Source of the DNA: Microcystis aeruginosa NIES-843
Lineage (GTDB): Bacteria; Cyanobacteriota; Cyanobacteriia; Cyanobacteriales; Microcystaceae
Direction: 5' to 3'
Assembly: GCF_000010625.1 (NCBI RefSeq)
Contig: NC_010296.1
Coordinates: forward strand, 3,600,001 to 3,632,000
Length of the DNA stretch: 32,000 nucleotides
The translations under genes were made by a program, and so were the position numbers. The notes beneath the pieces were generated by a model. It did not search any database and was not told the origin of the DNA. It saw nothing but the letters and a program-made list of their open reading frames with translations. This document shows positions 2,294-31,365 of the stretch, piece by piece. Positions within the stretch are counted from its first letter, which is position 1, and each line of letters opens with the position of its first letter.

Positions 2294-4369
2294 GTGGAAG
2301 TGCTTAAAAATCTCAAATTTTCGGGGCGATATTCCTCGCTGGCCCTGCTGCTGGCTATTTTCGGATTATTTCACGGGACGGTAATGGCCGAAGAAGAACC
2401 GCAAGAAACGGTTTTTCCCCGCGTCGAGCAGATAGTACAGTCTCCTCCTGCGACGGGAGAAACTACGCCACCCGTGGCAGCACCGACGGAAACCCCGACG
2501 GAAACCCCAAGCCCCGCAGAAACTCCCACAACAGCCCCACCGGTGCCGGCGGAGGAGTCGCGAGTTTTGGTGGCCGAAGTGGTAGTACAGGGGGCCGATC
2601 GAGAATTAGAAAATCTAGTTTATAATACCATTCGCACCCGACCAGGACGAAGCACGACTCGATCGCAACTGCAAGAAGATATTAACGCCGTTTTTGCCAC
2701 GGGCTTTTTTGCCGATGTGCGGGCAGTTCCCCAAGATACGCCTCTAGGGGTGCGAGTCACCTTTGAGGTGCAACCTAACCCCGTTTTTCAGGGCGTACAG
2801 ATTCAAATTGCCCCGGAAACCCTGGACAAATCGATTTTACCTGCCGGGGTGGTCGAGGAAATTTTCGCTAGTCAATACGGCAAAACCCTGAATTTGCGGG
2901 AATTACAGGCGGGGGTAAAAAAAATCAATGACTGGTACAGCAAAAACGGCTATGATCTGGCCCAGGTAATCGGTGCGCCGCAAGTCACTCCCGATGGTCG
3001 GGTGATTCTGGTCATTTCCGAAGGTTTAATCGAAAAAATTCAAGTACGCTACTTTAACGTTGAACAGGAACCGGTCAAGGGTAAAACTAGAGAATTTATC
3101 ATTACTAGGGAAATGCGCCTAAAAGCGGGGGATATTTTTAACCGCAATACGGCCCAACAGGATTTACAGCGTGTTTTCGGTCTCGGTTTATTCGAGGATG
3201 TGCGTCTGTCTTTTTCTCCCGGCAGCGACCCAAGGGAGGTGATTGTTAACGTCGATGTGGTGGAAGGTAATACCGGTTCCCTAGCCGCTGGGGGTGGTAT
3301 TAGCTCGAATGCGGGCTTATTCGGGACTGTTAGCTATCAACAGCGCAATTTTGGCGGTAATAACCAAACTTTAGGGGCAGAAGTCCAGTTAGGGGAACGG
3401 GAATTTTTATTCGATCTGAGTTTTTCCGATCCTTGGATTGCCACGGATAATTTCCGCACTTCCTACACGGTGAACGTTTTCCGGCGACAGTCGATTTCTC
3501 TGGTTTATGATGGGGAAAATTCCTCGATTCGGACGCTTAACGATAATGATAGTCCCCGTATTGTCCGGACGGGTGGCGGTATTACTTTTGTCCGTCCTTT
3601 GGCCGCCGATGTGTTTACGAAACCAAAATGGGTGGTTTCCCTAGGCTTTAACTATCAACAGGTACAGGTGCAAAATGCCAATGGTGACATCTCCCCCCTG
3701 TCTGCACCTCTCAACGGTTTTGGCAGTCAACAACTGGCTTTTAGTTCCTCTGGGATCGATGATCTACTTTCTCTAAATATTGGCGCTATTCGAGATTTTC
3801 GCGATAATCCCCTGCAGCCCACCAGTGGTTCTTTCCTGCGTCTAGGTTTAGAACAAACTGTCCCGGTCGGTTCTGGCAGTATTTTCGGCACTCGTGTTCG
3901 GGGTAGTTACAGTTACTTTATCCCCGTTCGCTTTATTAATTCCTTTAATCTCTTTGAAACCGATATTTTTAAAGGTCAGCAATCCCTCGCTTTTAATGTG
4001 CAAGCAGGGACAGTATTAGGGGATTTACCCCCCTACGATGCTTTTATCGTTGGGGGTAGTAACTCTGTACGGGGTTACGCCGAGGGAGAAGTGGGTAGCG
4101 GTCGCAGTTATTTCCAAGCGACGGCCGAATATCGTTTTCCCATTGTCGCTATTATTGGGGGGGCGTTATTTGTCGATTTCGGCACTACTATTGGTTCCCA
4201 AGGTGATGTCCCCGGTCAACCCGGTATTGTCCGGGATTTACCCGGTACTGGTCTCGGTTACGGTTTAGGTGTTCGGGTACAATCTCCTGTCGGCCAAATT
4301 CGGGTTGACTACGGTTTTAATGTCGATGGTAGTTCTCGTCTCCATTTCGGTATCGGGGAACGATTCTAA
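2294..4369 (+). CDS. bamA: Omp85/BamA-family outer membrane protein (cyanobacterial Toc75-like)
   Basis: The 691-aa ORF has a signal peptide, a Pro/Thr/Glu-rich linker, POTRA-like repeats and a C-terminal beta-barrel ending in F. It sits immediately upstream of lpxC, as in other cyanobacteria. The GTG start at 2294 is uncertain. Confidence 0.85.
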   Translation: MEVLKNLKFSGRYSSLALLLAIFGLFHGTVMAEEEPQETVFPRVEQIVQSPPATGETTPPVAAPTETPTETPSPAETPTTAPPVPAEESRVLVAEVVVQGADRELENLVYNTIRTRPGRSTTRSQLQEDINAVFATGFFADVRAVPQDTPLGVRVTFEVQPNPVFQGVQIQIAPETLDKSILPAGVVEEIFASQYGKTLNLRELQAGVKKINDWYSKNGYDLAQVIGAPQVTPDGRVILVISEGLIEKIQVRYFNVEQEPVKGKTREFIITREMRLKAGDIFNRNTAQQDLQRVFGLGLFEDVRLSFSPGSDPREVIVNVDVVEGNTGSLAAGGGISSNAGLFGTVSYQQRNFGGNNQTLGAEVQLGEREFLFDLSFSDPWIATDNFRTSYTVNVFRRQSISLVYDGENSSIRTLNDNDSPRIVRTGGGITFVRPLAADVFTKPKWVVSLGFNYQQVQVQNANGDISPLSAPLNGFGSQQLAFSSSGIDDLLSLNIGAIRDFRDNPLQPTSGSFLRLGLEQTVPVGSGSIFGTRVRGSYSYFIPVRFINSFNLFETDIFKGQQSLAFNVQAGTVLGDLPPYDAFIVGGSNSVRGYAEGEVGSGRSYFQATAEYRFPIVAIIGGALFVDFGTTIGSQGDVPGQPGIVRDLPGTGLGYGLGVRVQSPVGQIRVDYGFNVDGSSRLHFGIGERF

Positions 4370-4370
4370 T

Positions 4371-4412
4371 CAGTTATCAGTTATCAGTTATCAGTTATCA
4401 CTTATCAGTTAT
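4371..4412. repeat. STRR-like heptamer tandem repeat (CAGTTAT) x6
   Basis: The repeat reads cagttat cagttat cagttat cagttat cacttat cagttat, directly after the bamA stop. Confidence 0.9.
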
Positions 4413-4468
4413 CGATAAATTTAGTTCTTTTTGTTGTTCACTGATAAAAGCTTTATTACTTGATAATT

Positions 4469-5281
4469 ATGGTTTCTACTATCGCTAAACAATTTGAATT
4501 ATCGGGAATTGGCCTACATTCGGGGGAGATAACCCGGGTGCGCGTCTGTGGGGCAAATCCGGGGGAAGGACGTTATTTTGTCCGCAGAGATCTAGCCAAT
4601 CAACCGATTATTCCCGCTCTAGTTTCTTCGGTTTACCAAACGACTTTATCAACGGAATTGGGACAAGGAGAAGCCAAGGTCAGAACCGTTGAGCATTTAT
4701 TAGCGGCCTTAACCGCTTTGGGGGTAGAGGATGCTCGCATTGAGGTGGATGGTGCGGAAATTCCCCTCCTTGATGGTTCGGCCAAAATCTGGGTAGAAGC
4801 GATCGAAAATGCCGGTTTAAATAACTCTTTTTCTCCATCAGATTTAACGATTTCTCAACCGATTTGGTTGTACGAAGGAGATGCTTTTGTGGCGGCGATT
4901 CCTTCCCCTGAATTACGTTTTACCTACGGGATCGATTTTACCTATAAACCCATCGGTAATCAATGGTATAGTTGGAGTCCTGATCAGGAAAGTTTTAGTC
5001 AAGCGATCGCATCCGCCCGGACTTTCGGTTTTGCCGATCAAATTGAATATTTACAAAAGGCTGGTTTAATTAAAGGAGGCAGTTTAGAAAATGCTTTAGT
5101 CTGCGATCAAAATCAATGGTTAAATCCTCCTTTACGGTTTGAAAATGAGCCAGTAAGACATAAATTATTGGACTTAATTGGTGATTTGAGTTTACTGGGA
5201 ACTATTCCCACCGCTCATTACATGGCTTTTAAAGCCAGTCATAAACTTCACGTTCAATTAGCTAAAGCAATTCAGGGTTAA
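4469..5281 (+). CDS. lpxC: UDP-3-O-acyl-N-acetylglucosamine deacetylase
   Basis: The N-terminus ([19 protein letters not shown]...) and the rest of the 270-aa protein match the LpxC layout ([12 protein letters not shown]). I prefer the ATG at 4469 to the TTG at 4460. Confidence 0.85.
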
Positions 5282-5511
5282 TTATACTAAATTCTGTTTA
5301 AAAGGTATAGGGGAGTGGGAAGTGGGGCTGTCTGGAGGCGGGGTTTTTACTTCTATCGATGACATGGCTTTCGCTCGATCGTTCTCTACTCAAGCCTTTA
5401 TCCTAGCATTGTTGACCCTTGGCTATTAGCCGTCAGCTATCAGAATCATTCCAACATCGTCGGGTTTGCTCGGTGACAGGTTGCCAATCCAGAACTCAAC
5501 CCACCAGAGCG

Positions 5512-5610
5512 GCATCGCACTTTAACCCACAGCTTCAATAAATGTGCATGGTGCGTTCCCCAAAATCGATTGGTGGAGCAGTGGGAGTCACATTAGGGAA
5601 CGCACCCTAC
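5512..5610. repeat. Hairpin repeat family, copy R1
   Basis: The 11-12 bp arms GGTGCGTTCCCC (5550-5561) and GGGAACGCACC (5596-5606) flank a ~34-nt loop. The same ~100-bp unit recurs at 24428/26466, 29281, 30199 and 30947. The terminal CCCTAC (reverse complement GTAGGG) supplies the TAG stop of the 5607..6713 gene. Confidence 0.85.
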
Positions 5611-6713
5611 AGCTGCCACACGGTCAACGGGTTCCACAATCGGAGGCGTCGCGTGCGCTTGCCATCTTCGACCACCGCTTCCCAGTTGCGGTAGGGCTGA
5701 GGTGGCTGGTACTTCCCCTGCCCTGGGTCGTACTGCCCCTCAACACCGGTAAGCGCCGACATCGAATTGGTCGCGGCGGCCTTGACACCATCGTCGGTGG
5801 CGCGAGAGCCCCCGAAGAAGTCGTTGCCCGGCCAAGAGACATGGTCCCAGGCGACCAAACTGTACAGGGCGCATCCAGAAAAATCGTCGCCCCGCTCCGC
5901 ATAGGCGACCGGGTGGCACAGCTGCGACTTCTCCTCGTTCCCCGGCAGCCGCAGCGGACGGACTATGAACGATATGCCTTCAATCTCGACGCGGGCGTTT
6001 TCGCACTCGCTGTACGGGTCGAAGTAGACGGCCTTCAGGTTTGGAAGAGAGGTGCCGTGCTCGGTCAAGAGTCTCTGCAAAGCCATCTGCAAATGCGCGC
6101 CAAGTTGACCCCGGAACGGACCGGCGAACTGCCCGCAGCCGAGGCCCGGTAAGGTCACGAAGGCGGATTGCGGCTTAGCTGCTCGGCAGTTTATATACCG
6201 GAAGACTGGCAAGAGTCTGCGCCGGTACAGGTTGTAGTACCCCTCTGTAGACAACCGCCCATCCGCCGCAGTCGCCTCGCTCCAATCGGCCGGGGTATTC
6301 CCCCAGCCATTACACAGGAGAGCGCCTGGAGTAAATACCAACATCGCCGAAAAGGGAGGTGCGTGCGGCGTCGGGGAACGATGGTTGCCGTCGTCGAAGA
6401 CGGTCACCGGTACAGCGATCGAGATATCGCCCAGTAGACCGAGTTCGGTCAGGTTCCAATCGGAGCCGTCTCCGGACACGGCCATCTCGGCGAAGATCTG
6501 AGGTCGCTTGGTGTCGAGCAACTTGCCGAGAAGCTCCAGTTCTGTCAGTGCTTGAAGGTTCGAGTCCTGGAGGCGCTCACGCAGACAGTCTCCAGGTTGT
6601 GTCCGGCTGGCTCGCAACCTTTCCAGGTAGTCCGAAGCACGGGCCACGGTCTCCCCTGGAATGATGATGGAGTACTTGGGGGCGATAGCGTCGCCCGAAG
6701 TGTGGATGGTCAT
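5607..6713 (-). CDS. GC-rich orphan protein of unknown function; weak PARG/macrodomain-like G-C-G-x-F loop
   Basis: The long ORF is visibly far more GC-rich than its surroundings and has GC-rich third positions. As a result it spawns five overlapping spurious ORFs on both strands. I place the start at the ATG at 6713 (MTIHTSG...), 8 nt after AGGAAG, where composition switches to AT-rich. The motif LPGLGCGQFAGP resembles the diphosphate-binding loop of PARG-type macrodomains. Confidence 0.7.
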   Translation of the reverse strand: MTIHTSGDAIAPKYSIIIPGETVARASDYLERLRASRTQPGDCLRERLQDSNLQALTELELLGKLLDTKRPQIFAEMAVSGDGSDWNLTELGLLGDISIAVPVTVFDDGNHRSPTPHAPPFSAMLVFTPGALLCNGWGNTPADWSEATAADGRLSTEGYYNLYRRRLLPVFRYINCRAAKPQSAFVTLPGLGCGQFAGPFRGQLGAHLQMALQRLLTEHGTSLPNLKAVYFDPYSECENARVEIEGISFIVRPLRLPGNEEKSQLCHPVAYAERGDDFSGCALYSLVAWDHVSWPGNDFFGGSRATDDGVKAAATNSMSALTGVEGQYDPGQGKYQPPQPYRNWEAVVEDGKRTRRLRLWNPLTVWQL

Positions 6714-6741
6714 CAACGTCGCTTCCTTCGCCGAACTAAAT

Positions 6742-6810
6742 ATTATACGGAAACTTTCTCTATAACACTCTCCGGGGTAACGATATGGGTCAACCTTCTG
6801 TATAACACTC
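6742..6810 (-). promoter_or_regulatory. Putative promoter region of the GC-rich gene: TATAAT box plus two TATAACACTC direct repeats
   Basis: On the minus strand, TATAAT (6747-6742) lies ~28 nt upstream of the AGGAAG RBS. The 10-mer TATAACACTC occurs at 6761-6770 and 6801-6810, 40 bp apart. Confidence 0.3.
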
Positions 6811-7291
6811 CATTTAGGCGCAATCGCAAGAAGTCTTCCGTATATCACCCCCAAAAGCTTGTTAGTCAGATTAGCATATTGCCAAAAACCTTGTTTAACT
6901 AAATTTCTGACAACAAGCTAAAATAACAGGAGTTTTCCGGGATTCTAGAAAGGTAGAAACTAAGCACATCAAAGCTTTTAGCTTAACCAATTAGGTTTTA
7001 GATTCGGCCTTTGTTATCAGATGTGGGTTTTCAGTTCACCGATTACCGATGACTGTTTACTGATCACCGAACAAATCCCACCTCTCCGAACATTTGTCAA
7101 GACTGGGAGCGAAAAAGCCGCGTTTGTTCACACAGCTTAATTAAGAGTTGTAACTTTTAATGAACAGGAAGAGAGTCTAGGGCTGAGAGCTTGCTATAGT
7201 GAATCCTAGCCGTTTTTTCACGGCTCGTCATTATCATCTCAGAGCCTTTACTCGTCTCAATCATCATCCCAGAGTAAAATCAATAATCCCT

Positions 7292-8368
7292 ATGGTCAGC
7301 ACGATCCAAAAACCAGAATTCGAGGAAATCCGTCCGGGTATAAAAGTTCCCGCTAAAGAAACGATCCTCACTCCCCGCTTCTACACCACTGATTTTGAAG
7401 CGATGGCGGAAATGTCGATCGCCGCTAACGAGGAAGAACTGAAAGCGATTTTAGAGGAATTCCGTACCGATTATAACCGGCATCACTTCGTTCGTAATCA
7501 AGAATTCGATCGCTCTTGGGAGCATATTGATGGCGAAACTCGCCGCTTATTCGTGGAATTTCTGGAAAGATCCTGCACGGCTGAATTTTCCGGCTTTCTT
7601 CTCTACAAAGAACTCGGCAGACGTTTAAAAAACAGAAATCCCGTTCTCGCGGAATGCTTTAACCTCATGTCCCGGGACGAAGCGCGTCACGCTGGGTTCC
7701 TTAATAAGGCTTTATCGGATTTTAACCTCTCCCTTGACTTGGGATTTTTAACCAAAAGCCGTAACTACACCTTCTTTAAACCGAAATTTATCTTCTACGC
7801 CACCTATCTTTCCGAAAAAATCGGCTACTGGCGCTATATCACCATTTATCGTCATCTCGAACAACATCCCGAAGATCGGGTTTATCCGATTTTTAACTTC
7901 TTTGAGAATTGGTGTCAAGACGAAAACCGTCACGGGGACTTCTTTGATGCGATCATGCGCGCGCAGCCTGATATTCTTAATGATTGGCGCGCTCGTCTCT
8001 GGTGTCGTTTCTTCCTGCTTTCGGTCTTCGCTACTATGTATCTCAATGATACTCAGCGTTCTGGTTTCTACGCCATTCTCGGTTTGGACGCTCGCGAGTA
8101 CGATAAGTATGTGATCGAGAAGACCAATGAAACCGCCGGCCGCGTCTTCCCGATTGTTCTCGATGTGGATAGTCCTGAATTTTATGATCGCCTAGAGATT
8201 TGTGTTGGCAATAACGAGGGATTACGGGCGATCGATAGCGAAAACAGTCCCGCACCGGTTAAATTCCTGAAGAAATTGCCTATCTTCGCCTCTAACGCTT
8301 GGCAATTCCTCAAATTGTACCTGATGAAACCGATTCGGGTCGATAAATTAGCCGGTAGCGTCCGTTAA
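7292..8368 (+). CDS. acsF: Mg-protoporphyrin IX monomethyl ester oxidative cyclase (aerobic)
   Basis: The sequence matches the AcsF/CHL27 di-iron protein: TPRFYTTDF, two E..H motifs ([17 protein letters not shown]). I place the start at the ATG at 7292 ([10 protein letters not shown]); the upstream extension to 7199 looks non-native. Confidence 0.9.
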
Positions 8369-8395
8369 AAAGTTTGTTTTCTTGAGACATGGTGA

Positions 8396-8420
8396 GGGTG
8401 GGTTAAACCACCCTTTTTTT
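8396..8420 (+). terminator. Rho-independent terminator of acsF
   Basis: The stem GGGTGG (8396-8401) / CCACCC (8408-8413) has a 6-nt loop and is followed by T7 (8414-8420), about 30 nt after the acsF stop. Confidence 0.7.
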
Positions 8421-8532
8421 GTCGATAAAATTCTTAAGAAAATCCTCTAACATTTGTATCCTCGCTAGACTGGATCCTAGGGGTGTGAACTAGGTTTTTA
8501 CTTTTTACTTTTTACTTTTTCCTGTCAAAAAT

Positions 8533-9072
8533 ATGGCTATTTATAGTGAATTACCCACAGGACAACGTCTCTATCTCGATAATCAAGGGCCGCAGACGAT
8601 TGTAACCCTCGCTAGTGGTGCTGTGGGACAACAACAGCAGTCTAGCAGTAGTTTTGCCACGGGAGTTTGGACAAAAGAACCCCAAATAGAGATAATTCCC
8701 CAAGGGGCAATTATTGAAATTATCACTGAAACCGGACCCCACAGAATCCAAATTCAAGGGAGCAGTATCGGTTTTTCCTCTCCTCATACCTCTGGAGTTT
8801 CTCAGTCCTCTCAATCGACCACTGCTACCAGTTTCTCCTCCTCACCGATGCAACCGATGCAACCGATGCAACCGATGCAACCGATGCAACCGATGAAAAT
8901 GGGTAATATGTCGATGAATTTTGCCCCCATGGAAATGGAGATGGGAGAGATGAAAATGAGTATGGGAGACGCAAAAACCGTCAGCAAAGTCCGATTTTGT
9001 CGTCAATGCGGGGCAAAAGTAGCGGCAACCGATCGCTTTTGTAGTAGCTGTGGTCATCAGTTACAGCAATAG
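8533..9072 (+). CDS. Zinc-ribbon domain protein with Ser/Thr-rich and Met-rich low-complexity region
   Basis: The C-terminus is CRQCG-x11-CSSCG, a zinc ribbon. It is preceded by (PMQ)5 and a Met-rich segment. Confidence 0.6.
   Translation: MAIYSELPTGQRLYLDNQGPQTIVTLASGAVGQQQQSSSSFATGVWTKEPQIEIIPQGAIIEIITETGPHRIQIQGSSIGFSSPHTSGVSQSSQSTTATSFSSSPMQPMQPMQPMQPMQPMKMGNMSMNFAPMEMEMGEMKMSMGDAKTVSKVRFCRQCGAKVAATDRFCSSCGHQLQQ
8845..8895 (+). repeat. Perfect 9-bp tandem repeat (CCGATGCAA) x5.7 inside the CDS
   Basis: Five exact copies plus a partial copy, encoding PMQPMQPMQPMQPMQPM. Confidence 0.95.
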
Positions 9073-9173
9073 GCAAAACCTGTTTAGCTAGATTCACCAG
9101 GCCTTTTGGGGCAAAATTTTGTTTATATTGGCTGAATTGACCCGCAGAGGGGGAATATATCCCCTGTCTGGGT

Positions 9174-19412: not shown

Positions 19413-20788
19413 TAAGTATTTTAGCTTTCTTTCTTCCAGGGCTTTGAGAAAATTTGTGTTGTTGCCATAACCAGCATCTATTAAGACGATTTTCGGTCGA
19501 TAGCCTCTGGTTAAGCTCCGGTCAATTAAATCTATCGCTATCTCTGGTTTCTTCTTAAATTCTTTGTCTTCTTTCCCCTCGGCTAAGGAACTAGCCGGTT
19601 GATAAATTTCCCTGTCTAGGGGTACACTTTTTTTGCCGTCGTAGAGATGGGTAGTGACGGCGACTATTCCGTTGTCTGTCTTGCCAATTTCTCCTAGGTA
19701 CTGCCTGCCAACTCCGGCGGTCAGATTGCCACTTTTTCGATGTCCTGAGTCATCGACAATCAGGGAAAATCCTCGGGGGATTTGCGTCTGGCGGCATTGG
19801 TTCATCACTTGCAACCGACATTCATTCACCTGACGGTCTGACCAAGGAGATTCGGTCAAAAAGTGATGTAATCGGTTATAAACTACTCCGACGGCATTAT
19901 TGGCCATTTGAGTGAGGTTTTTCCTCTCACTTTCCCCTAATAATCCTCCTAAATAGGGCTGGCTGAATAAATCTAAAAACCTTGTTGGATAAGACTTTTG
20001 GACTTTTTTCCCCTCAAAAAGTACCAGATATGGGAGTGATCAGGGGTAAATTCAGGGACTTTTTCCCTGAAAATTAGGTAATTGACCCCCTCAAAATCGG
20101 TCAAACCCCACACCCGTTACAGTAGAGCAGGAAGTCGCCTTCCCACCCCCTGCTTCAAAACCGGACTTACGACTTTCGCCGTATCCGGCTCCTGAGTAAC
20201 TAGGCTACTGTCATTAGTAGAATAATAATGGGAATTATTATTTCCTTGTCTATTCAACCCTCTTGGCTGTATCCCCACCAGACAAGATTGTTGGTTTTAG
20301 GGCGTATATGACCGTTGATTGTTGCTTAGACTTCCTAGTTACCCGTCCTTTGTCAGCATATCTTTGATATTACTCAAAGCCTTGGCTTTTAAGGACATCC
20401 TCTCCCTCTATTGACTTGCGGATGGTTTCCTACTGCCCCGAACGGGCAGAGTCAATCAGGGTTACTTCGTTCCCTATAACCATTGGTTGAACCCTTAGGA
20501 TGATACTGTCCACAACAGAGTAACGGGAATGCCTTACTGATAGTGGTATGAGCTATCAGCCCCAACTCTGTTAACTTTTGTTTCGAGCCTGTCAGCCTTT
20601 TGGCTCGTGGGTGTTGACGATGGTTAATTCGTATCTTCGCCCCAGGGCTATCCATAGGTTCTGGCTCAACGGGTTTCTGATTTAGGCTATCAGATACCGC
20701 TTTTTTTTCCTCGCTCACTACCTCAGATGTACCAAGTCTAAAGCAGCAGGAAATGCCGTCACTCTAGGCATCTAGAGGACAGGACTAA

Positions 20789-21930: not shown

Positions 21931-23192
21931 TAAGGTTATTACTAACCCGCACCTGTAGGGTTATAAAGTTATCAAGGTACTACATTTACCAAGCGGCTAA
22001 TCCTCTAAACGTCTTACTGTCTAGTTTCTAGCCAACGAATCGCACCACACCCCACACCCTACACCCTGCCCCTAGGAAAAACTTTTTCAGCAGACCCTAA
22101 ATATTGTCTGAAGCCGTTTTTTTGCGCTTCGTTTTTGAAGCAATTGTCAAACCGCCGACACCATCGGTCAAAGCATGGGGGCATTGCGGCTGGGGTTGTC
22201 TCTTTCATCGCTGATCTTTCAACGTAAAGTGCTTACTCTTTAACGATTATACTCGATTTGATCTTTATTTGGCGTTTAAGTCCCACTAGGACTCAACAAC
22301 GATTAGTCCATCGCCACCAATTTGCCGAAGAAGAATCAGGAAACCCCGTTCAAGAAATTAGTCTAGATGGAGGAAAAGTGCGCTTAAGAACCGAAACTAA
22401 GGGAGAGGCTTGTATCTGGAAAGATTATCAAGCAATCTGTGTTGATACTTTCCTAAGAAAAGCTTGGTTTGGAGAGAATGAATCGTTAATATATTGGGTT
22501 AATCAACAACCTTTATCTGACCCCCTTACCTGTTTGGGAGACGGACATCCCGGTATTGGGAAAATTGTGAAAAACTGGGATTGTCCAGGAGAAAAAAGAG
22601 AAATACTTGACTGGTTTCATTTGGTAGAAAATCTTCATAAAGTCGGCGGTTCAGTGAAGAGATTGAAAAAAGCAGCAAGTTTATTATGGCAGGGCAAAAT
22701 TGAGGAAACAATAGCATTAATCTCTCCTTTAAAAAACGAACGAGCTGAAAATTTCTGTCGTTATTTAGAGATTCATCGTCATCGAATTGTTAATTATAAT
22801 TACTATCAACAAGAAGAGATTTGCTCTATTGCTTCGGGAGCCGTTGAATCCACGGTTAAACAGATTGACCGACGACTGAAAATTTCTGGAGCCCAGTGGA
22901 ATGAAGAAAATATCCCTCAAGTGCTTAAACACCGCTGTGCTTACCTAAATAACAGTCTTTAGCTATTGAATAGTATTTATGTTCTGACAAAACTGACTTG
23001 CTCCCTGTATCCTCCCCCATATCACGCCCAAAAGCGTGTTAGCCAGATTAGCTTACTGCAAAGAGCCTCCTTTAAGGAGACTTATCACAGAAGCCTTCTG
23101 GGAATGTAGCAAAGATTCTTGTATCTGGCTGCACTTTGTCACAAAATTTCACTATTATTTCGGGTAAGGTATCGTAAATCCCTTGATAGATA

Positions 23193-24191
23193 GGGTTTAC
23201 TGAAAAAGTTTGTTGGTGGGGCTAGGGTGTGGGGTGTGGTGCGATTCGTTGGCTAGAAACTAGACAGTAAGACGTTTAGAGGATTAGCCGCTTGGTAAAT
23301 GTAGTACCTTGATAACTTTATAACCCTACAGGTGCGGGTTAGTAATAACCTTAGTCCTGTCCTCTAGATGCCTAGAGTGACGGCATTTCCTGCTGCTTTA
23401 GACTTGGTACATCTGAGGTAGTGAGCGAGGAAAAAAAAGCGGTATCTGATAGCCTAAATCAGAAACCCGTTGAGCCAGAACCTATGGATAGCCCTGGGGC
23501 GAAGATACGAATTAACCATCGTCAACACCCACGAGCCAAAAGGCTGACAGGCTCGAAACAAAAGTTAACAGAGTTGGGGCTGATAGCTCATACCACTATC
23601 AGTAAGGCATTCCCGTTACTCTGTTGTGGACAGTATCATCCTAAGGGTTCAACCAATGGTTATAGGGAACGAAGTAACCCTGATTGACTCTGCCCGTTCG
23701 GGGCAGTAGGAAACCATCCGCAAGTCAATAGAGGGAGAGGATGTCCTTAAAAGCCAAGGCTTTGAGTAATATCAAAGATATGCTGACAAAGGACGGGTAA
23801 CTAGGAAGTCTAAGCAACAATCAACGGTCATATACGCCCTAAAACCAACAATCTTGTCTGGTGGGGATACAGCCAAGAGGGTTGAATAGACAAGGAAATA
23901 ATAATTCCCATTATTATTCTACTAATGACAGTAGCCTAGTTACTCAGGAGCCGGATACGGCGAAAGTCGTAAGTCCGGTTTTGAAGCAGGGGGTGGGAAG
24001 GCGACTTCCTGCTCTACTGTAACGGGTGTGGGGTGTAGGGTTTTACCCATTTTCAGGCGGTCAATTACCTAATTTTCAGGGAAAAAGTCCCTGAATTTTC
24101 CTCCCAATCACTCCAATCGCTGGTACTTTTTGATTTCAAAAAAGTCTAAAAATATTATCCAACAAGGTTTTTAGATTTATTCAGCAACCCC
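23193..24191 (+). mobile_element. G-rich-core MITE, copy C, carrying an intact group II intron
   Basis: The ends are GGGTTTACTGAAAAAG... and ...TTCAGCAACCCC. The 6-bp TSD TAGATA lies at 23187-23192 and 24192-24197. Confidence 0.85.
23239..24023 (+). mobile_element. ORF-less group II intron (self-splicing ribozyme retroelement), copy 2, 785 nt
   Basis: The 5' end is GUGCG. Domain V is GAGCCGGAUACGGCGAAAGUCGUAAGUCCGGUUU (23948-23981), with the AGC triad, a GAAA tetraloop and a 2-nt bulge. Domain VI has a bulged A (24017) 7 nt from the 3' end, which terminates ...AC. An AT-rich stub hairpin sits where the IEP ORF would be. Confidence 0.8.
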
Positions 24192-30946: not shown

Positions 30947-31072
30947 TTTTATTATAACAGGATTTGGTATCACAACTTCAATCAATGTGCATGGTGCGTT
31001 CCCCAAAAATCGATCGGTGGAGCAGTGGGAGCCACATTAGGGAACGCACCCTACGAGATCGGCGATCGCACT
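30947..31072. repeat. Hairpin repeat family, copy R5, plus a partial right-end copy at 30924-30937
   Basis: The arms lie at 30993-31004 and 31040-31050. The right extension ctacgagatcggcgatcgcac encodes the tail (RVRSPIS) and stop of the DUF2442 gene. Confidence 0.85.
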
Positions 31073-31365
31073 CGATTATTTAACCAACGCTTCAAGGATT
31101 TTTGACTTTCCCCTGATGGTTGGCCAAGAATCAAGTTTTTAGTGCTAATGTCTTCATCTAGTTGATTCCAATGGATTCCACTGCCACCAGCGATCAAGCG
31201 ATAATCATTGCGCTCCTCAATTGAGCCATGCAGGAGCCGAGGATACCATGCCAGGGGAACAGATATAGTGCGCCCATCAGACAAATCTACACTGAGTGTG
31301 TCATCTGTGATGGCCAATTGCTGAATAGCCAATGTTTCAAATACTTCATTCGTTAAAAAAGTCAT
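31051..31365 (-). CDS. DUF2442-family protein (second copy)
   Basis: The 104-aa ORF carries the LSDGRTISVPLAWYPRL and IHWNQLDEDI motifs. Confidence 0.8.
   Translation of the reverse strand: MTFLTNEVFETLAIQQLAITDDTLSVDLSDGRTISVPLAWYPRLLHGSIEERNDYRLIAGGSGIHWNQLDEDISTKNLILGQPSGESQKSLKRWLNNRVRSPIS

What the first reader, a model, noticed from the sequence alone, without database searches (positions are those of the whole stretch)
5512..6810. Sharply GC-rich orphan gene wedged after lpxC, with a PARG/macrodomain-like loop
The ORF 5607-6713 is visibly much more GC-rich than everything else in the window. It generates five long overlapping spurious ORFs. Composition switches within a few bases of its start codon and of its stop codon, so the foreign segment is essentially just the CDS.

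It has its own AT-rich upstream region, with an AGGAAG RBS, a TATAAT box and two TATAACACTC direct repeats. Its 3' end is fused to hairpin repeat R1, like the TA-like cassettes 24 kb away.

The protein matches no family I can name. LPGLGCGQFAGP resembles the G-C-G-x-F diphosphate-binding loop of PARG-type macrodomains. There is also a WPGNDFFGGSRATDDG segment. An ADP-ribose-processing enzyme delivered as a single-gene cassette would fit a conflict (defence or anti-defence) role, but this is speculative.
Basis: partly seen in the sequence, partly recalled or inferred. Interest (0 to 1): 0.7.

Follow-up and report, generated by a model that had tools for sequence, protein, structure and literature searches.

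The report
Captured integron cassette encoding MavL-like hydrolase
A GC-rich foreign gene in a Microcystis chromosome encodes a MavL-family macrodomain enzyme, predicted to remove ADP-ribose from arginine residues; it arrived as an integron gene cassette and this copy later lost its recombination site, so the enzyme family is known but its job in a free-living cyanobacterium is not.

Summary
ORF 5607-6713 (-) has GC 0.614 and GC3 0.74, against 0.42 for the rest of the window (z = 4.8). Composition switches 22 nt upstream of the ATG and inside the last two codons.

The protein is not an orphan. It matches Pfam PF24754 "Macrodomain effector MavL" full length (E = 3e-143) and the solved MavL structures (E = 1e-65). 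It keeps both class motifs and every residue shown by mutagenesis to matter in MavL. It lacks the PARG and MacroD motifs. I infer arginine-specific mono-ADP-ribosylhydrolase activity.

The new point is how it arrived. Untruncated Microcystis alleles (372 aa) and relatives in several phyla carry a 58-nt attC-like site just after the stop (R'' GCCGAAC, R' GTTAGGC, covariation-supported). The insert begins with GTTCGGC, the exact complement of R''. A paralogous empty copy of the native repeat reads GTTAGGC. That is the G|TT signature of integron-integrase capture.

The window allele is a deletion derivative. It lost the attC and the last five codons, and it takes its stop codon from a resident hairpin repeat. 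The TATAAT box and direct repeats are native repeat DNA.

The gene is strain-variable. The biological role, possibly countering Arg-ADP-ribosylating toxins, is untested.

The parts
5607..6713 (-). CDS of 368 aa including the stop codon: a MavL-family (PF24754) macrodomain, predicted Arg-specific mono-ADP-ribosylhydrolase. This is the C-terminally truncated allele, ending ...TVWQL*.
   Evidence: Pfam E = 3.2e-143 over profile positions 1-325 of 325. PDB MavL E = 1.1e-65. Foldseek to MavL E = 1.5e-27, TM 0.76. Motifs LPGLGCGQF at residue 188 and WDHVSWPGNDFF at residue 289. Catalytic residues mapped.
5614..6735 (-). Cassette-derived foreign DNA (GC 0.61): a 22-nt leader plus codons 1-367.
   Evidence: Homology to alternative-cargo Microcystis haplotypes stops at 5613. 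Homology to GC-rich orthologues L107, L109 and L017 spans 5615 to 6735-6738. GC values by segment.
6730..6736 (-). Cassette 5' core site GTTCGGC (GCCGAAC on the + strand). The inferred crossover is G|TT, between 6736 and 6735.
   Evidence: It is the exact reverse complement of the attC R'' box GCCGAAC that follows the untruncated alleles. The same GTT[C/A]GGC-GAA[A/G]GAAGG start is found in L107, L019, L020, L023 and L025. The empty paralogous site reads GTTAGGC.
6714..6729 (-). Leader GAAGGAAGCGACGTTG, with the RBS AGGAAG at 6722-6727. It is part of the cassette.
   Evidence: The leader is conserved in orthologues from other phyla.
6742..6747 (-). TATAAT hexamer in native DNA, 5 nt upstream of the core site. 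It is a candidate -10 box supplying transcription to the promoterless cassette.
   Evidence: Sequence. Also present in the gene-less copy U2. Not called by the consensus promoter scan, so function is inferred only.
6752..6810 (-). Two 19-nt direct repeats at 6752-6770 and 6792-6810. On the - strand they read GAGTGTTATAGAGAAAGTT and GAGTGTTATACAGAAGGTT.
   Evidence: Both repeats are also present in U2 of L113, so they belong to native repeat DNA.
6736..7025 (.). Native AT-rich repeat, here called U. It is absent from the alternative-cargo haplotype. Positions 6729-6951 recur at 90.6% identity 2.4 kb away in the L113-type haplotype. A partial copy lies at window 23015-23075.
5527..5613 (.). Its terminal CCCTAC supplies the TAG stop (5607-5609).
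   Evidence: It is present at this position in strains without the gene (L102, L103, L106). It was found only in Microcystis loci, 23 of the 118 loci then held.
4469..5281 (+). lpxC, the left flank of the variable slot.
   Evidence: PF03331.
7199..8368 (+). acsF-like cyclase (Rubrerythrin family), divergent from the MavL-like gene; the right flank of the slot.
   Evidence: PF02915. This flank is shared by all haplotypes.

Best explanation
The ORF encodes a cytoplasmic, single-domain macrodomain enzyme of the MavL/DUF4804 class.

Inferred chemistry, by homology to MavL:
- It binds mono-ADP-ribosylated arginine.
- The diphosphate sits on loop G192-F196.
- The distal ribose is held by F196, D290, N297 and D308.
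- The arginine is held by F74, E76, D298 and T306.
- A water activated by the substrate's alpha-phosphate attacks C1'' (substrate-assisted SN2). This releases ADP-ribose and unmodified arginine.

Inferred history:
- The gene entered Microcystis as an integron gene cassette from a GC-rich (about 0.63) donor pool. The cassette was a promoterless ORF plus a 58-nt attC.
- It recombined at the G|TT of a GTTAGGC core at the end of a native AT-rich repeat. That repeat's TATAAT may now drive it.
- The untruncated state survives in some strains: 372 aa, then the attC, next to an AAA_14/DUF4143 gene.
- In the window lineage, a deletion joined codon 367 to a resident hairpin repeat. This removed the attC and 5 codons, borrowed a stop codon and immobilised the gene.

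What is shown: family membership, conserved active site, foreign composition, junctions, the attC with covariation, and strain variability.

What is inferred: the enzymatic specificity, IntI involvement and expression.

What is speculative: the physiological role. My preferred guess is erasure of arginine ADP-ribosylation imposed by phage or competitor ADP-ribosyltransferases. The confidence given covers identity, chemistry class and cassette origin, not the role.
For: Family:
- Pfam PF24754, 476.9 bits against a cut-off of 27.
- Solved MavL structures, E = 1e-65 over residues 12-342.
- AF2 model (pTM 0.76). Foldseek top 16 hits are all MavL (E down to 1.5e-27, TM about 0.76), followed by Larg1, CG3568 and CG2909.
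- MavL F105, E107, H142, F227, P264, Y265, D315, N322, D323, T331, D332 and D333 are all conserved (roles from PMC10951314).
- Both class motifs are present.
- dN/dS is 0.18-0.31 against orthologues.

Foreignness:
- GC is +0.19 above the host, whereas homologues at 73 other loci match their hosts (mean difference 0.003, maximum 0.11).
- Strains with an identical LpxC carry other cargo in the slot.

Cassette:
- An attC-like site follows the stop in Microcystis L113-L116 and in L107, L109, L019, L020, L023 and L026.
- Bottom-strand folds have z-scores of -2.3 to -3.6.
- 89.5% of cells are paired. Seven pairs carry compensatory changes, against 1.4 +/- 0.9 in shuffles (0 of 500). Slid controls give 22-42% paired.
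- The extrahelical base is unpaired in all 8 sequences.
- The 5' GTTCGGC is the reverse complement of R''.
- An empty GTTAGGC sits in the paralogous repeat in three contigs.
- L107 is an array: MavL-attC, a 182-aa ORF with attC (GCCTAAC...GTTGGGT), then a TIR gene.
- In L023 the gene is flanked by attCs on both sides.

Deletion derivative.
Against: - No activity data exist for any member of this clade.
- Three ADPR-contacting MavL positions differ: T224 to C, C226 to Q and K236 to G.
- The AF2 model is only moderate (pLDDT 68.7) and falls below 50 exactly in the functional loops.
- No integron integrase was found in the window, in the Microcystis loci, or within +/-6 kb in L020, L023 and L026. 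Microcystis genomes were not searched as a whole.
- The empty site is a paralogous repeat copy, not an empty allele of the same locus.
- Sequence 3' of the hybrid GTTAGGC in L113 does not continue as in that copy.
- The attC was identified with my own criteria and an 8-sequence alignment, not with IntegronFinder's model. The extrahelical base would be C on the bottom strand rather than the usual G.
- The protein has no PADLOC or PHROG hit.
- No ADP-ribosyltransferase partner was found among 49 same-strand neighbours of homologues.
Confidence: 0.75

Rival explanations
1. Same enzyme, different role. It reverses an endogenous regulatory arginine ADP-ribosylation, as DraG does. Alternatively it clears NAD-derived ADP-ribose adducts or metabolites as housekeeping, rather than acting in conflict.
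For: - Homologues in most genomes have host-like GC and sit among ordinary genes, for example next to fructose-1,6-bisphosphatase and sulfatase genes in Luteolibacter, and DUF6909 plus an M24 peptidase in Chloroflexota.
- Recurrent partners are NAD/ADPR-metabolic in flavour. These are a DSP-PTPase of the PTP-SAK/PTP-NADK type in 5 Verrucomicrobia loci and a Sphaerotilus plasmid, DUF1810, and ADP_ribosyl_GH.
Against: - In Microcystis the gene is accessory and strain-variable, and was recently acquired without any partner.
- No ADP-ribosyltransferase neighbour was seen anywhere.
- Carriage on integron cassettes alongside TIR and HNH genes fits accessory or conflict functions better.
Confidence: 0.2
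2. Decaying passenger. The gene is a stranded, functionless remnant of a cassette in this lineage.
For: - The attC and the last 5 codons are lost.
- An IS is inserted just upstream of the TATAAT in three complete genomes (L097-L099).
- Presence or absence is polymorphic.
- No consensus promoter was called.
- Differences within Microcystis are few and mostly nonsynonymous: dN 0.0054, dS 0.0018.
Against: - An intact ORF with the identical protein lies on all 21 contigs read, and the index lists it in 66 collection blocks.
- All catalytic residues are intact.
- The lost residues lie outside the Pfam domain, which covers residues 14-341.
- The gene is 99.5% identical between haplotypes whose flanks differ by about 3%. 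This argues for recent spread or constraint rather than decay.
Confidence: 0.15
3. Ordinary horizontal transfer without integron machinery. A DNA fragment was integrated by illegitimate or microhomology-mediated recombination, and the attC-like hairpin is just a terminator or REP element.
For: - No IntI was found.
- Native and foreign sequences share TAGTT[A/C]GGCG at the junction, which could serve as microhomology.
- Microcystis genomes are rich in MITEs and ISs that promote rearrangement (PMC2779907).
Against: - The insert's first 7 nt are the exact complement of the hairpin's R'' box.
- The 3' junction is a hybrid GTTAGGC.
- The hairpin has RYYYAAC/GTTRRRY ends, a conserved bulged base and compensatory changes. 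It recurs behind the gene in several phyla and in multi-attC arrays.
Confidence: 0.12
4. PARG-type poly(ADP-ribose) glycohydrolase.
For: The MavL class shares core topology with bacterial TcPARG (PMC10951314). There is a G-x-G-x-F diphosphate loop.
Against: - No GGGx6-8QEE motif.
- Foldseek gives no PARG chain with E below 0.001.
- The assayed class members do not process PARylated PARP1.
Confidence: 0.03

Closest known systems
Legionella pneumophila MavL (Lpg2526; PDB 6OMI, 8DMP-8DMS, 8IPJ, 8IPW, 8XEP)
   Same: Same Pfam family and fold. About 37% identity over about 330 residues. Both signature motifs are present, as are all residues shown by mutagenesis to matter (F105, E107, F227, D315, D323, D333).
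   Different: MavL is a Dot/Icm-translocated metaeffector that recognises ubiquitin and reverses SidE-made Arg42-ADPR-Ub in a eukaryotic host. The Microcystis protein lacks MavL's N- and C-terminal extensions. It sits in a free-living cyanobacterium with no ubiquitin or SidE context (inference), and it is integron-borne. Positions T224, C226 and K236 differ.
DUF4804 class: Drosophila CG2909 and CG3568, and Legionella Larg1
   Same: Arg-specific macrodomain class with the same two loops. Foldseek E about 1e-5.
   Different: Much more distant (10-15% identity), with larger variable regions. Larg1 is paired with the ART Ceg3. No ART partner is seen here.
DraG, ARH1 and Tri1 (ARH-fold ADP-ribosylarginine hydrolases)
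   Same: The same predicted chemistry outcome, removal of ADP-ribose from arginine. Tri1-type enzymes act as immunity against interbacterial ART toxins (my own knowledge). This is the functional model for the conflict hypothesis.
   Different: An unrelated fold and a binuclear-metal mechanism (PMC10951314 discussion). One homologue locus (L012) has an ARH gene next to the MavL-like gene.
Integron gene cassettes and CALIN or single-attC elements (Cury et al. 2016, PMC4889954)
   Same: A promoterless single ORF plus attC with RYYYAAC...GTTRRRY ends, a G|TT junction, arrays in relatives, and insertion away from any intI, as described for secondary-site integration.
   Different: In Microcystis it is a lone cassette outside any array. 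In the window allele the attC is deleted, so it no longer meets the definition of a mobilisable cassette.
Sedentary-integron defence cassettes (Darracq et al. 2024, bioRxiv 10.1101/2024.07.02.601686)
   Same: A cassette-borne accessory gene in arrays with candidate defence genes: TIR matching PDC-S35 in L107, and an HNH ORF in L020.
   Different: That paper mentions no macrodomain or ADP-ribosyl cassette. No defence phenotype is known for this family, and the protein has no PADLOC model hit.

Membership tests
MavL / DUF4804 Arg-specific macrodomain class (Pfam PF24754) | Profile match above the curated threshold over the whole domain | tested here: met
   476.9 bits against a cut-off of 27, profile positions 1-325 of 325. 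Phmmer to PDB MavL E = 1.1e-65.
MavL / DUF4804 Arg-specific macrodomain class (Pfam PF24754) | Diphosphate-loop motif [V/I/L]xGxGxGx[F/W/Y] | tested here: met
   LPGLGCGQF at residues 188-196. Motif taken from PMC10951314.
MavL / DUF4804 Arg-specific macrodomain class (Pfam PF24754) | Catalytic-loop motif WDxx[S/A]xPGN[D/E][F/Y][F/W/Y] | tested here: met
   WDHVSWPGNDFF at residues 289-300.
MavL / DUF4804 Arg-specific macrodomain class (Pfam PF24754) | Catalytically important residues (MavL F105, E107, F227, D315, D323, D333; also N322 and T331) | tested here: met
   They map to F74, E76, F196, D290, D298, D308, N297 and T306 and are all conserved in the window protein. All eight are also invariant columns in the 16-sequence alignment of close homologues.
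MavL / DUF4804 Arg-specific macrodomain class (Pfam PF24754) | MavL-like macrodomain fold | tested here: met
   AF2 pTM 0.76. Foldseek to MavL chains E = 1.5e-27, TM about 0.76. Caveat: mean pLDDT is 68.7 and the functional loops are below 50.
MavL / DUF4804 Arg-specific macrodomain class (Pfam PF24754) | Hydrolysis of mono-ADP-ribosyl-arginine and not of Ser, Thr, Cys, His or DNA-linked ADPR | not testable with these tools
   Needs an enzyme assay. So far shown only for MavL, Larg1, CG2909 and CG3568.
Legionella-type MavL metaeffector (ubiquitin-ADPR specific, T4SS-translocated) | Ubiquitin recognition, a SidE partner and a Dot/Icm translocation signal | not tested
   No SidE-like or Dot/Icm gene is in the window. 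The protein lacks MavL's terminal extensions. Ubiquitin binding cannot be assessed here.
PARG-like macrodomains | [quoted passage not shown] | tested here: not met
   No regex match. No PARG chain among Foldseek hits with E below 0.001.
MacroD-type macrodomains | Nx(6)GG[V/L/I] and G[V/I/A][Y/F]G motifs | tested here: not met
   Neither motif is present.
Integron gene cassette | An attC site 3' of the ORF: R'' RYYYAAC and R' GTTRRRY, an imperfect palindrome with L''/L', and a bulged base | tested here: met
   Met for the untruncated Microcystis allele (L113:7161-7218, GCCGAAC...GTTAGGC) and for relatives. Not met for the window allele itself, where the site is deleted.
Integron gene cassette | Cassette boundaries at G|TT, with the 5' TTxxxx matching the cassette's own R' | tested here: met
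   The window has GTTCGGC at 6736-6730 on the - strand, which is the reverse complement of R'' GCCGAAC. The 3' hybrid is GTTAGGC and the empty paralogous site is GTTAGGC.
Integron gene cassette | A single ORF without its own promoter | tested here: met
   There are 22 nt between the core site and the ATG, holding only an RBS.
Integron gene cassette | Occurrence in arrays of cassettes with co-oriented attC sites | tested here: met
   Met for relatives: L107 (at least two attCs and three ORFs), L023 (attC on both sides), L020 (two) and L119. In Microcystis the cassette is solitary.
Integron gene cassette | An integron integrase (IntI) and attI in the genome or nearby | tested here: inconclusive
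   None in the window or in +/-6-10 kb of the loci examined. Whole Microcystis genomes could not be searched.
Known anti-phage defence systems (PADLOC-DB) | A match to a defence-system protein model | tested here: not met
   No hit for the protein at E up to 10. Neighbours in other haplotypes or contigs hit the candidate families PDC-S01 and PDC-S35.

The most novel reading that the evidence does not exclude
A tightly conserved clade of stand-alone MavL-type hydrolases (66-87% identity among the 120 best hits, spanning many phyla) may circulate on integron cassettes as a portable single-gene antidote. It would erase arginine ADP-ribosylation imposed by phage (Alt/Mod-like) or interbacterial ART toxins. 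That would make it a new class of mobile immunity gene. Microcystis would have domesticated one copy in a small variable islet next to other candidate defence genes.
Probability: 0.25. Interest if true: 0.7.

Novelty: new member of a known kind. Interest (0 to 1): 0.5.

Why it matters
MavL-class macrodomains were described in 2024 as the first macrodomains specific for ADP-ribosyl-arginine. They are known functionally only from Legionella effectors and two fly proteins (PMC10951314). What the several hundred environmental bacterial homologues do is open (585 clusters at 50% identity).

This locus shows three things. First, one well-conserved clade moves between phyla as an integron cassette, which explains cross-phylum identities of 66-87%. 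Second, such a cassette was captured in a bloom-forming cyanobacterium at a site with a clean G|TT junction. That implies integron-integrase activity reached Microcystis. Third, the gene is accessory and sits in a polymorphic slot.

This makes testable the idea that Arg-ADP-ribosylation is a currency of conflict in aquatic bacteria. It also gives a compact 368-aa enzyme for biochemistry.

It does not overturn anything. The enzyme family and integron cassettes are both known.

Tried and rejected
- NCBIfam, PADLOC and PHROGs scans of the protein gave no hits.
- Phage genomes: no homologue in 50,697 records. Plasmids: 2 hits. IMG/VR: one 43%-identical hit among ORFans. Phage or plasmid carriage is therefore rejected as the usual vehicle.
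- I looked for a conserved ART partner. I clustered 501 neighbour ORFs from 85 loci and ran Pfam on 49 same-strand neighbours. No ART family turned up.
- The GTDB species-representative scan returned no Microcystis hit. However, NIES-843 protein BAG03745.1 is identical to the window protein, and the tool warns of masked stretches. I did not use that scan as evidence of absence.
- I considered whether the hairpin repeat R1 is itself an attC. It reads 5'-GTTYYYY...RRRRAAC-3' on both strands, the inverse of attC polarity, so I rejected this (reading).
- The hairpin as an RNA terminator: the fold z-score is only -1.83 and there is no T-run.
- Metagenome scan for the L108 junction: nothing. The scan for the attC core found one contig, L119, which lacks the gene but keeps its 3' remnant.
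- Rfam: nothing at the locus.
- Literature searches for DUF1810 and for Microcystis with ART or integron gave nothing relevant.
- I did not run a second, deeper AF2 model. The sequence evidence was already decisive.
Full report
OBSERVATION

The ORF on the minus strand at 5607-6713 (ATG at 6713, TAG at 5607-5609; 368 aa) is a compositional outlier.
- Its GC is 0.614 and its GC3 is 0.740. The other 23 ORFs in the window have GC 0.33-0.50 and GC3 0.26-0.50.
- Of 569 windows of the same length elsewhere, none exceeds 0.51 (mean 0.42, sd 0.04, z = 4.8).
- AGGAAG, TATAAT and two 19-nt direct repeats lie upstream.
- A hairpin repeat abuts the stop codon. Its arm motif has 10 matches in the window against 1.09 expected, which makes five inverted-repeat copies.

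SOURCE AND POPULATION CONTEXT

The exact protein is encoded on Microcystis contigs, including HE973756.1 and the complete chromosome AP019314.1. The index lists it in 66 blocks of the assembly collection. It equals WP_012266666.1 / BAG03745.1, "MULTISPECIES: hypothetical protein [Microcystis]", which UniRef already calls "Macrodomain effector MavL domain-containing protein". The Microcystis aeruginosa NIES-843 genome has 42.3% GC and about 12% ISs and MITEs (PMC2779907).

Looking up the neighbouring LpxC protein (identical sequence) shows that the slot between lpxC and acsF is polymorphic.
- Some contigs carry the MavL-like gene.
- Others (L102, L103, L106) carry a 105-aa ORF plus a trypsin-like protease instead.
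- Three complete genomes (L097-L099) have an IS inserted at window position 6748.
- One contig (L104) has a tandem duplication of 5286-5613.

Homology between the window and the alternative-cargo haplotype stops at 5613 and resumes at 7026.

WHAT THE PROTEIN IS

The protein matches Pfam PF24754 "Macrodomain effector MavL" at E = 3.2e-143, covering the whole profile. Phmmer against PDB sequences finds only MavL, at E = 1.1e-65 over residues 12-342.

An AF2 model (pTM 0.76, mean pLDDT 68.7, functional loops poorly resolved) gave these Foldseek results:
- MavL chains as the top 16 hits (E down to 1.5e-27, TM about 0.76).
- Then Larg1, CG3568 and CG2909 at E about 1e-5.
- No PARG or MacroD chain below 1e-3.

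The defining paper (PMC10951314) gives two class motifs and the residues whose mutation impairs MavL. Both motifs are present: LPGLGCGQF at 188 and WDHVSWPGNDFF at 289.

In the alignment to chain 8XEP, the chain index equals MavL numbering. The residues map as follows:
- F105 = F74, E107 = E76, H142 = H111
- G221/G223/G225 = G190/G192/G194, F227 = F196
- P264/Y265 = P233/Y234, A313 = A288
- D315 = D290, N322 = N297, D323 = D298
- T331/D332/D333 = T306/D307/D308

Three ADPR-contacting positions differ: T224 to C, C226 to Q (a backbone contact in MavL) and K236 to G. The PARG motif GGGx6-8QEE and the MacroD motifs are absent.

[quoted passage not shown] The enzyme belongs to the arginine-specific mono-ADP-ribosylhydrolase class, not to PARG, and it is not an orphan. 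Activity and specificity are inferred by homology. Only four members of the class have been assayed.

FAMILY DISTRIBUTION

- The 90%-clustered database holds 1463 homologues with E up to 1e-5. The best 120 are 66-99% identical.
- An exhaustive profile-free scan of 1.84 billion representatives gives 585 clusters at E up to 1e-3 and 245 at E up to 1e-30. Many are embedded in giant multidomain proteins.
- Among GTDB species representatives, 254 relatives were found. The best 80 (52-80% identity) include Desulfobacterota, Planctomycetota, Chloroflexota, Verrucomicrobiota, Acidobacteriota, Bacteroidota and Pseudomonadota, plus several cyanobacteria: Petrachloros, Synechococcus, Chamaesiphon, Mastigocoleus and Prochlorothrix.
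- At 73 loci with at least 2 kb of flank, the homologue's GC matches its host: mean difference 0.003, range -0.09 to +0.11. In Microcystis the difference is +0.19.
- dN/dS against orthologues is 0.18-0.31.
- The family is essentially absent from phages (0 of 50,697 records; one IMG/VR contig) and rare on plasmids (2 records).

HOW IT GOT THERE: AN INTEGRON CASSETTE

Some Microcystis alleles are 372 aa and end ...TVWQSTERS, like most homologues. In the contigs that carry them (L113-L116) the layout is:

acsF, then repeat U1, then the gene, then a 128-nt GC-rich tail, then a convergent AAA_14/DUF4143 gene (GC 0.40), then a second copy of the repeat (U2, 90.6% identical to window 6951-6729), then the hairpin repeat.

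The tail is conserved in the closest GC-rich relatives L107 and L109 (86% nt identity to the window gene, flanks GC 0.63-0.65).

The tail contains a 58-nt imperfect palindrome: GCCGAAC-AAGC-GCATgCACCTG-ACGGGCTTCGCCCG-CAGGTGATGC-GCAGC-GTTAGGC. This has the anatomy of an attC site:
- an R'' box fitting RYYYAAC in 6 of 7 positions,
- an R' box fitting GTTRRRY,
- L''/L' arms with one bulged base on the L'' side,
- a short terminal loop.

The same site follows the homologous gene in a Pirellulaceae MAG (L020), an Anaerolineae genome (L023), a Betaproteobacteria MAG (L019), L026, and L021 where the contig end cuts it. The bottom strands fold with z-scores of -2.3 to -3.6.

On an 8-sequence alignment:
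- 89.5% of cells pair, and 97% in the L/terminal helix.
- Seven pairs show changes on both sides, against 1.4 +/- 0.9 in shuffles (0 of 500).
- Shifting the 3' partners by 1-3 columns drops pairing to 22-42%.
- The bulged base is unpaired in all eight sequences.
- Caveat: the set is small and the structure was derived from these sequences.

The junctions fit integrase chemistry.
- The foreign DNA starts with GTTCGGC (window 6736-6730 on the minus strand). This is the exact reverse complement of R'' GCCGAAC.
- It is followed by the leader GAAGGAAG...ATG. The same GTT[C/A]GGC-GAA[A/G]GAAGG start precedes the gene in L107, L019, L020, L023 and L025.
- At the 3' end, the attC ends in a hybrid GTTAGGC.
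- The gene-less copy U2 reads ...TATAATATGTA-GTTAGGC-... at the homologous position in three independent contigs.
- The pattern of G from one partner and TTxxxx from the other is what IntI-mediated recombination at G|TT produces (established integron biology; Cury et al. 2016, PMC4889954).

Relatives sit in arrays.
- L107 has MavL-attC, then a 182-aa ORF with its own attC (GCCTAAC...GTTGGGT), then a TIR gene.
- In L023 a 74-nt attC (fold z = -9.7) immediately precedes the gene and the 58-nt one follows it.
- L020 has a second cassette with an HNH ORF and a 93-nt attC.
- L119 keeps the attC and the last roughly 30 nt of the gene behind an unrelated ORF.

I found no integron integrase in the window, in the Microcystis loci, or within 6 kb in L020, L023 and L026. 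Whole genomes could not be searched. Integrons are reported from Cyanobacteria, Chloroflexi and Verrucomicrobia, and cassettes at secondary sites without intI are known.

THE WINDOW ALLELE

In the window, the sequence from codon 368 to the end of U2 is missing. That covers the last 5 codons, the attC, the AAA_14 gene and U2. Codon 367 (CAG) is joined directly to CTG-TAG-GGTGCG..., the end of the resident hairpin repeat. This repeat is present at the same place in strains without the gene.

So the stop codon and the last Leu codon are repeat-derived. The attC is gone and the gene is immobilised.

The AT-rich upstream region is native repeat DNA, because TATAAT and both direct repeats recur in U2. 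Only the RBS leader came with the gene. A promoterless cassette landing 5 nt downstream of a TATAAT is a plausible route to expression. However, the consensus scan calls no promoter there, and expression is untested.

FUNCTION

The chemistry is a strong inference. The role is not.

Points that favour a conflict role:
- cassette carriage,
- strain variability,
- the PADLOC candidate PDC-S01 (AAA_14/DUF4143, E = 3e-59) next to the untruncated Microcystis allele,
- PDC-S35 (TIR, E = 1e-81) in the L107 array,
- an MmeI-type methyltransferase and a NERD-kinase-RNAP-alpha-CTD protein next to the Gemmataceae homologue,
- HsdM in L109,
- a WYL-ATPase-SIR2-MavL-like-DSP-phosphatase operon on a Sphaerotilus plasmid.

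Points against, or neutral:
- no PADLOC or PHROG hit for the protein itself,
- no ART partner among neighbours,
- many homologues sit in housekeeping surroundings with host-like GC.

Recurrent partners are a DSP-PTPase (5 Verrucomicrobia loci plus Sphaerotilus), DUF1810 (3 loci) and an ARH gene (1 locus). These tie the family to NAD/ADP-ribose metabolism without saying which substrate.

My preferred model is removal of arginine ADP-ribosylation imposed by foreign ARTs, analogous to Tri1-type immunity. It gets perhaps 0.25-0.3 probability.

VERDICT

This is a real, sharply bounded, horizontally acquired gene. It is a new member of a known enzyme family delivered by a known kind of mobile element.

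Within the library I could search, the integron-cassette nature of this MavL clade and its capture in Microcystis appear undescribed. Only three papers mention DUF4804, and the integron-defence preprint mentions no macrodomain. Interest is moderate.

Noticed in passing
window 30994-31053 and ORF 31051-31365 (-): A second hairpin-repeat copy supplies the TAG stop codon (CTA in its terminal CCCTAC) of a DUF2442-like small ORF, exactly as for the MavL-like gene. The repeat was found only in Microcystis loci, 23 of the 118 loci then held.
   Followed up: partly
window 5282-7025 compared with L102/L103/L106, L104, L097-L099 and L113-L116: The slot between lpxC/hairpin and acsF has at least five haplotypes: MavL(368); MavL(372) with attC, an AAA_14/DUF4143 gene (PADLOC PDC-S01) and a second U repeat; a 105-aa ORF plus a trypsin-like protease; a tandem duplication of 5286-5613; and an IS insertion at 6748.
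   Followed up: partly
L108 (Logan SRR31843398_16303) 439-1543: A copy 88% identical in nucleotides runs from codon 3 to the truncated ...WQL* end, plus 8 nt of the Microcystis hairpin. It is embedded in unrelated AT-rich (GC 0.40) DNA with no called ORFs. This looks like a secondary transfer of the window-type allele into an unknown recipient.
   Followed up: partly
L011/L022 (Petrachloros mirabilis ULC683) 4895-9119: The cyanobacterial homologue (75% aa identity, host-like GC, overlapping a DUF1810 gene) also lies about 2 kb from acsF, in the same divergent orientation as in Microcystis. No other cyanobacterial locus shows this.
   Followed up: partly
L118 (Sphaerotilus sulfidivorans plasmid NZ_CP035707.1) 1722-12205: A co-directional gene row: WYL protein, ATP-binding protein, SIR2, MavL-like (DUF4804), dual-specificity phosphatase, two hypotheticals, MoxR and VWA. 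This may be an NAD-centred conflict system containing a MavL-like hydrolase.
   Followed up: no
L052, L054, L057, L045, L044 (Verrucomicrobiota): A small DSP-PTPase of about 170 aa (Pfam PTP-SAK / Tc-R-P / PTP-NADK) is directly adjacent to the MavL homologue. In Luteolibacter sp. AS25 the pair sits among housekeeping genes.
   Followed up: partly
L016/L034 (Gemmataceae MAG) 3314-7531: The neighbour of the homologue is a 1405-aa protein combining NERD, two kinase domains and an RNA polymerase alpha C-terminal domain. From my own knowledge, that alpha domain is the classic target of T4 Alt/ModA arginine ADP-ribosylation. The locus lies next to an MmeI-type methyltransferase.
   Followed up: no
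L119 (Ga0247727_10106012) 311-1745: The MavL-type attC plus only the last roughly 30 nt of the MavL CDS sit behind an unrelated 333-aa lipoprotein-like ORF, in a contig with further attC-like sites. An ORF replacement inside a cassette seems possible.
   Followed up: partly
window 6752-6810 plus 6730-6736: On the minus strand the two direct repeats contain GTTATAC and GTTATAG. They lie 40 nt apart, and the nearer one is about 30 nt from the GTT core site. From memory this layout resembles the DR2/DR1/core arrangement of attI1. However, the repeat is multi-copy and no intI lies next to it.
   Followed up: no
window 20116-20193 (-) and 23946-24023 (+): Two inverted Rfam group II intron (domain V/VI) matches, 55 bits each, bracket a region with DDE transposase ORFs. 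The window from 16 to 28 kb is dense in IS fragments.
   Followed up: no
window 23015-23075: A partial copy (about 84% identity) of a 61-nt segment of the U repeat that lies upstream of the MavL-like gene.
   Followed up: no
one search hit list (for example P0279 of 4552 aa, P0304 of 4421 aa, P0285 of 3415 aa): Many distant homologues embed the MavL-like domain in giant multidomain proteins. This suggests polymorphic-toxin or effector contexts for other branches of the family.
   Followed up: no
L117 (IMGVR_UViG_3300033049_000041) 5881-6897: This is the only viral-contig homologue (43% identity). It sits in a co-directional run of small ORFs with no Pfam or PHROG match.
   Followed up: partly
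window 8533-9072 (+): A 179-aa ORF with a PMQ-type tandem peptide repeat and a C-terminal zinc-ribbon. It varies in length between strains (167-179 aa).
   Followed up: no
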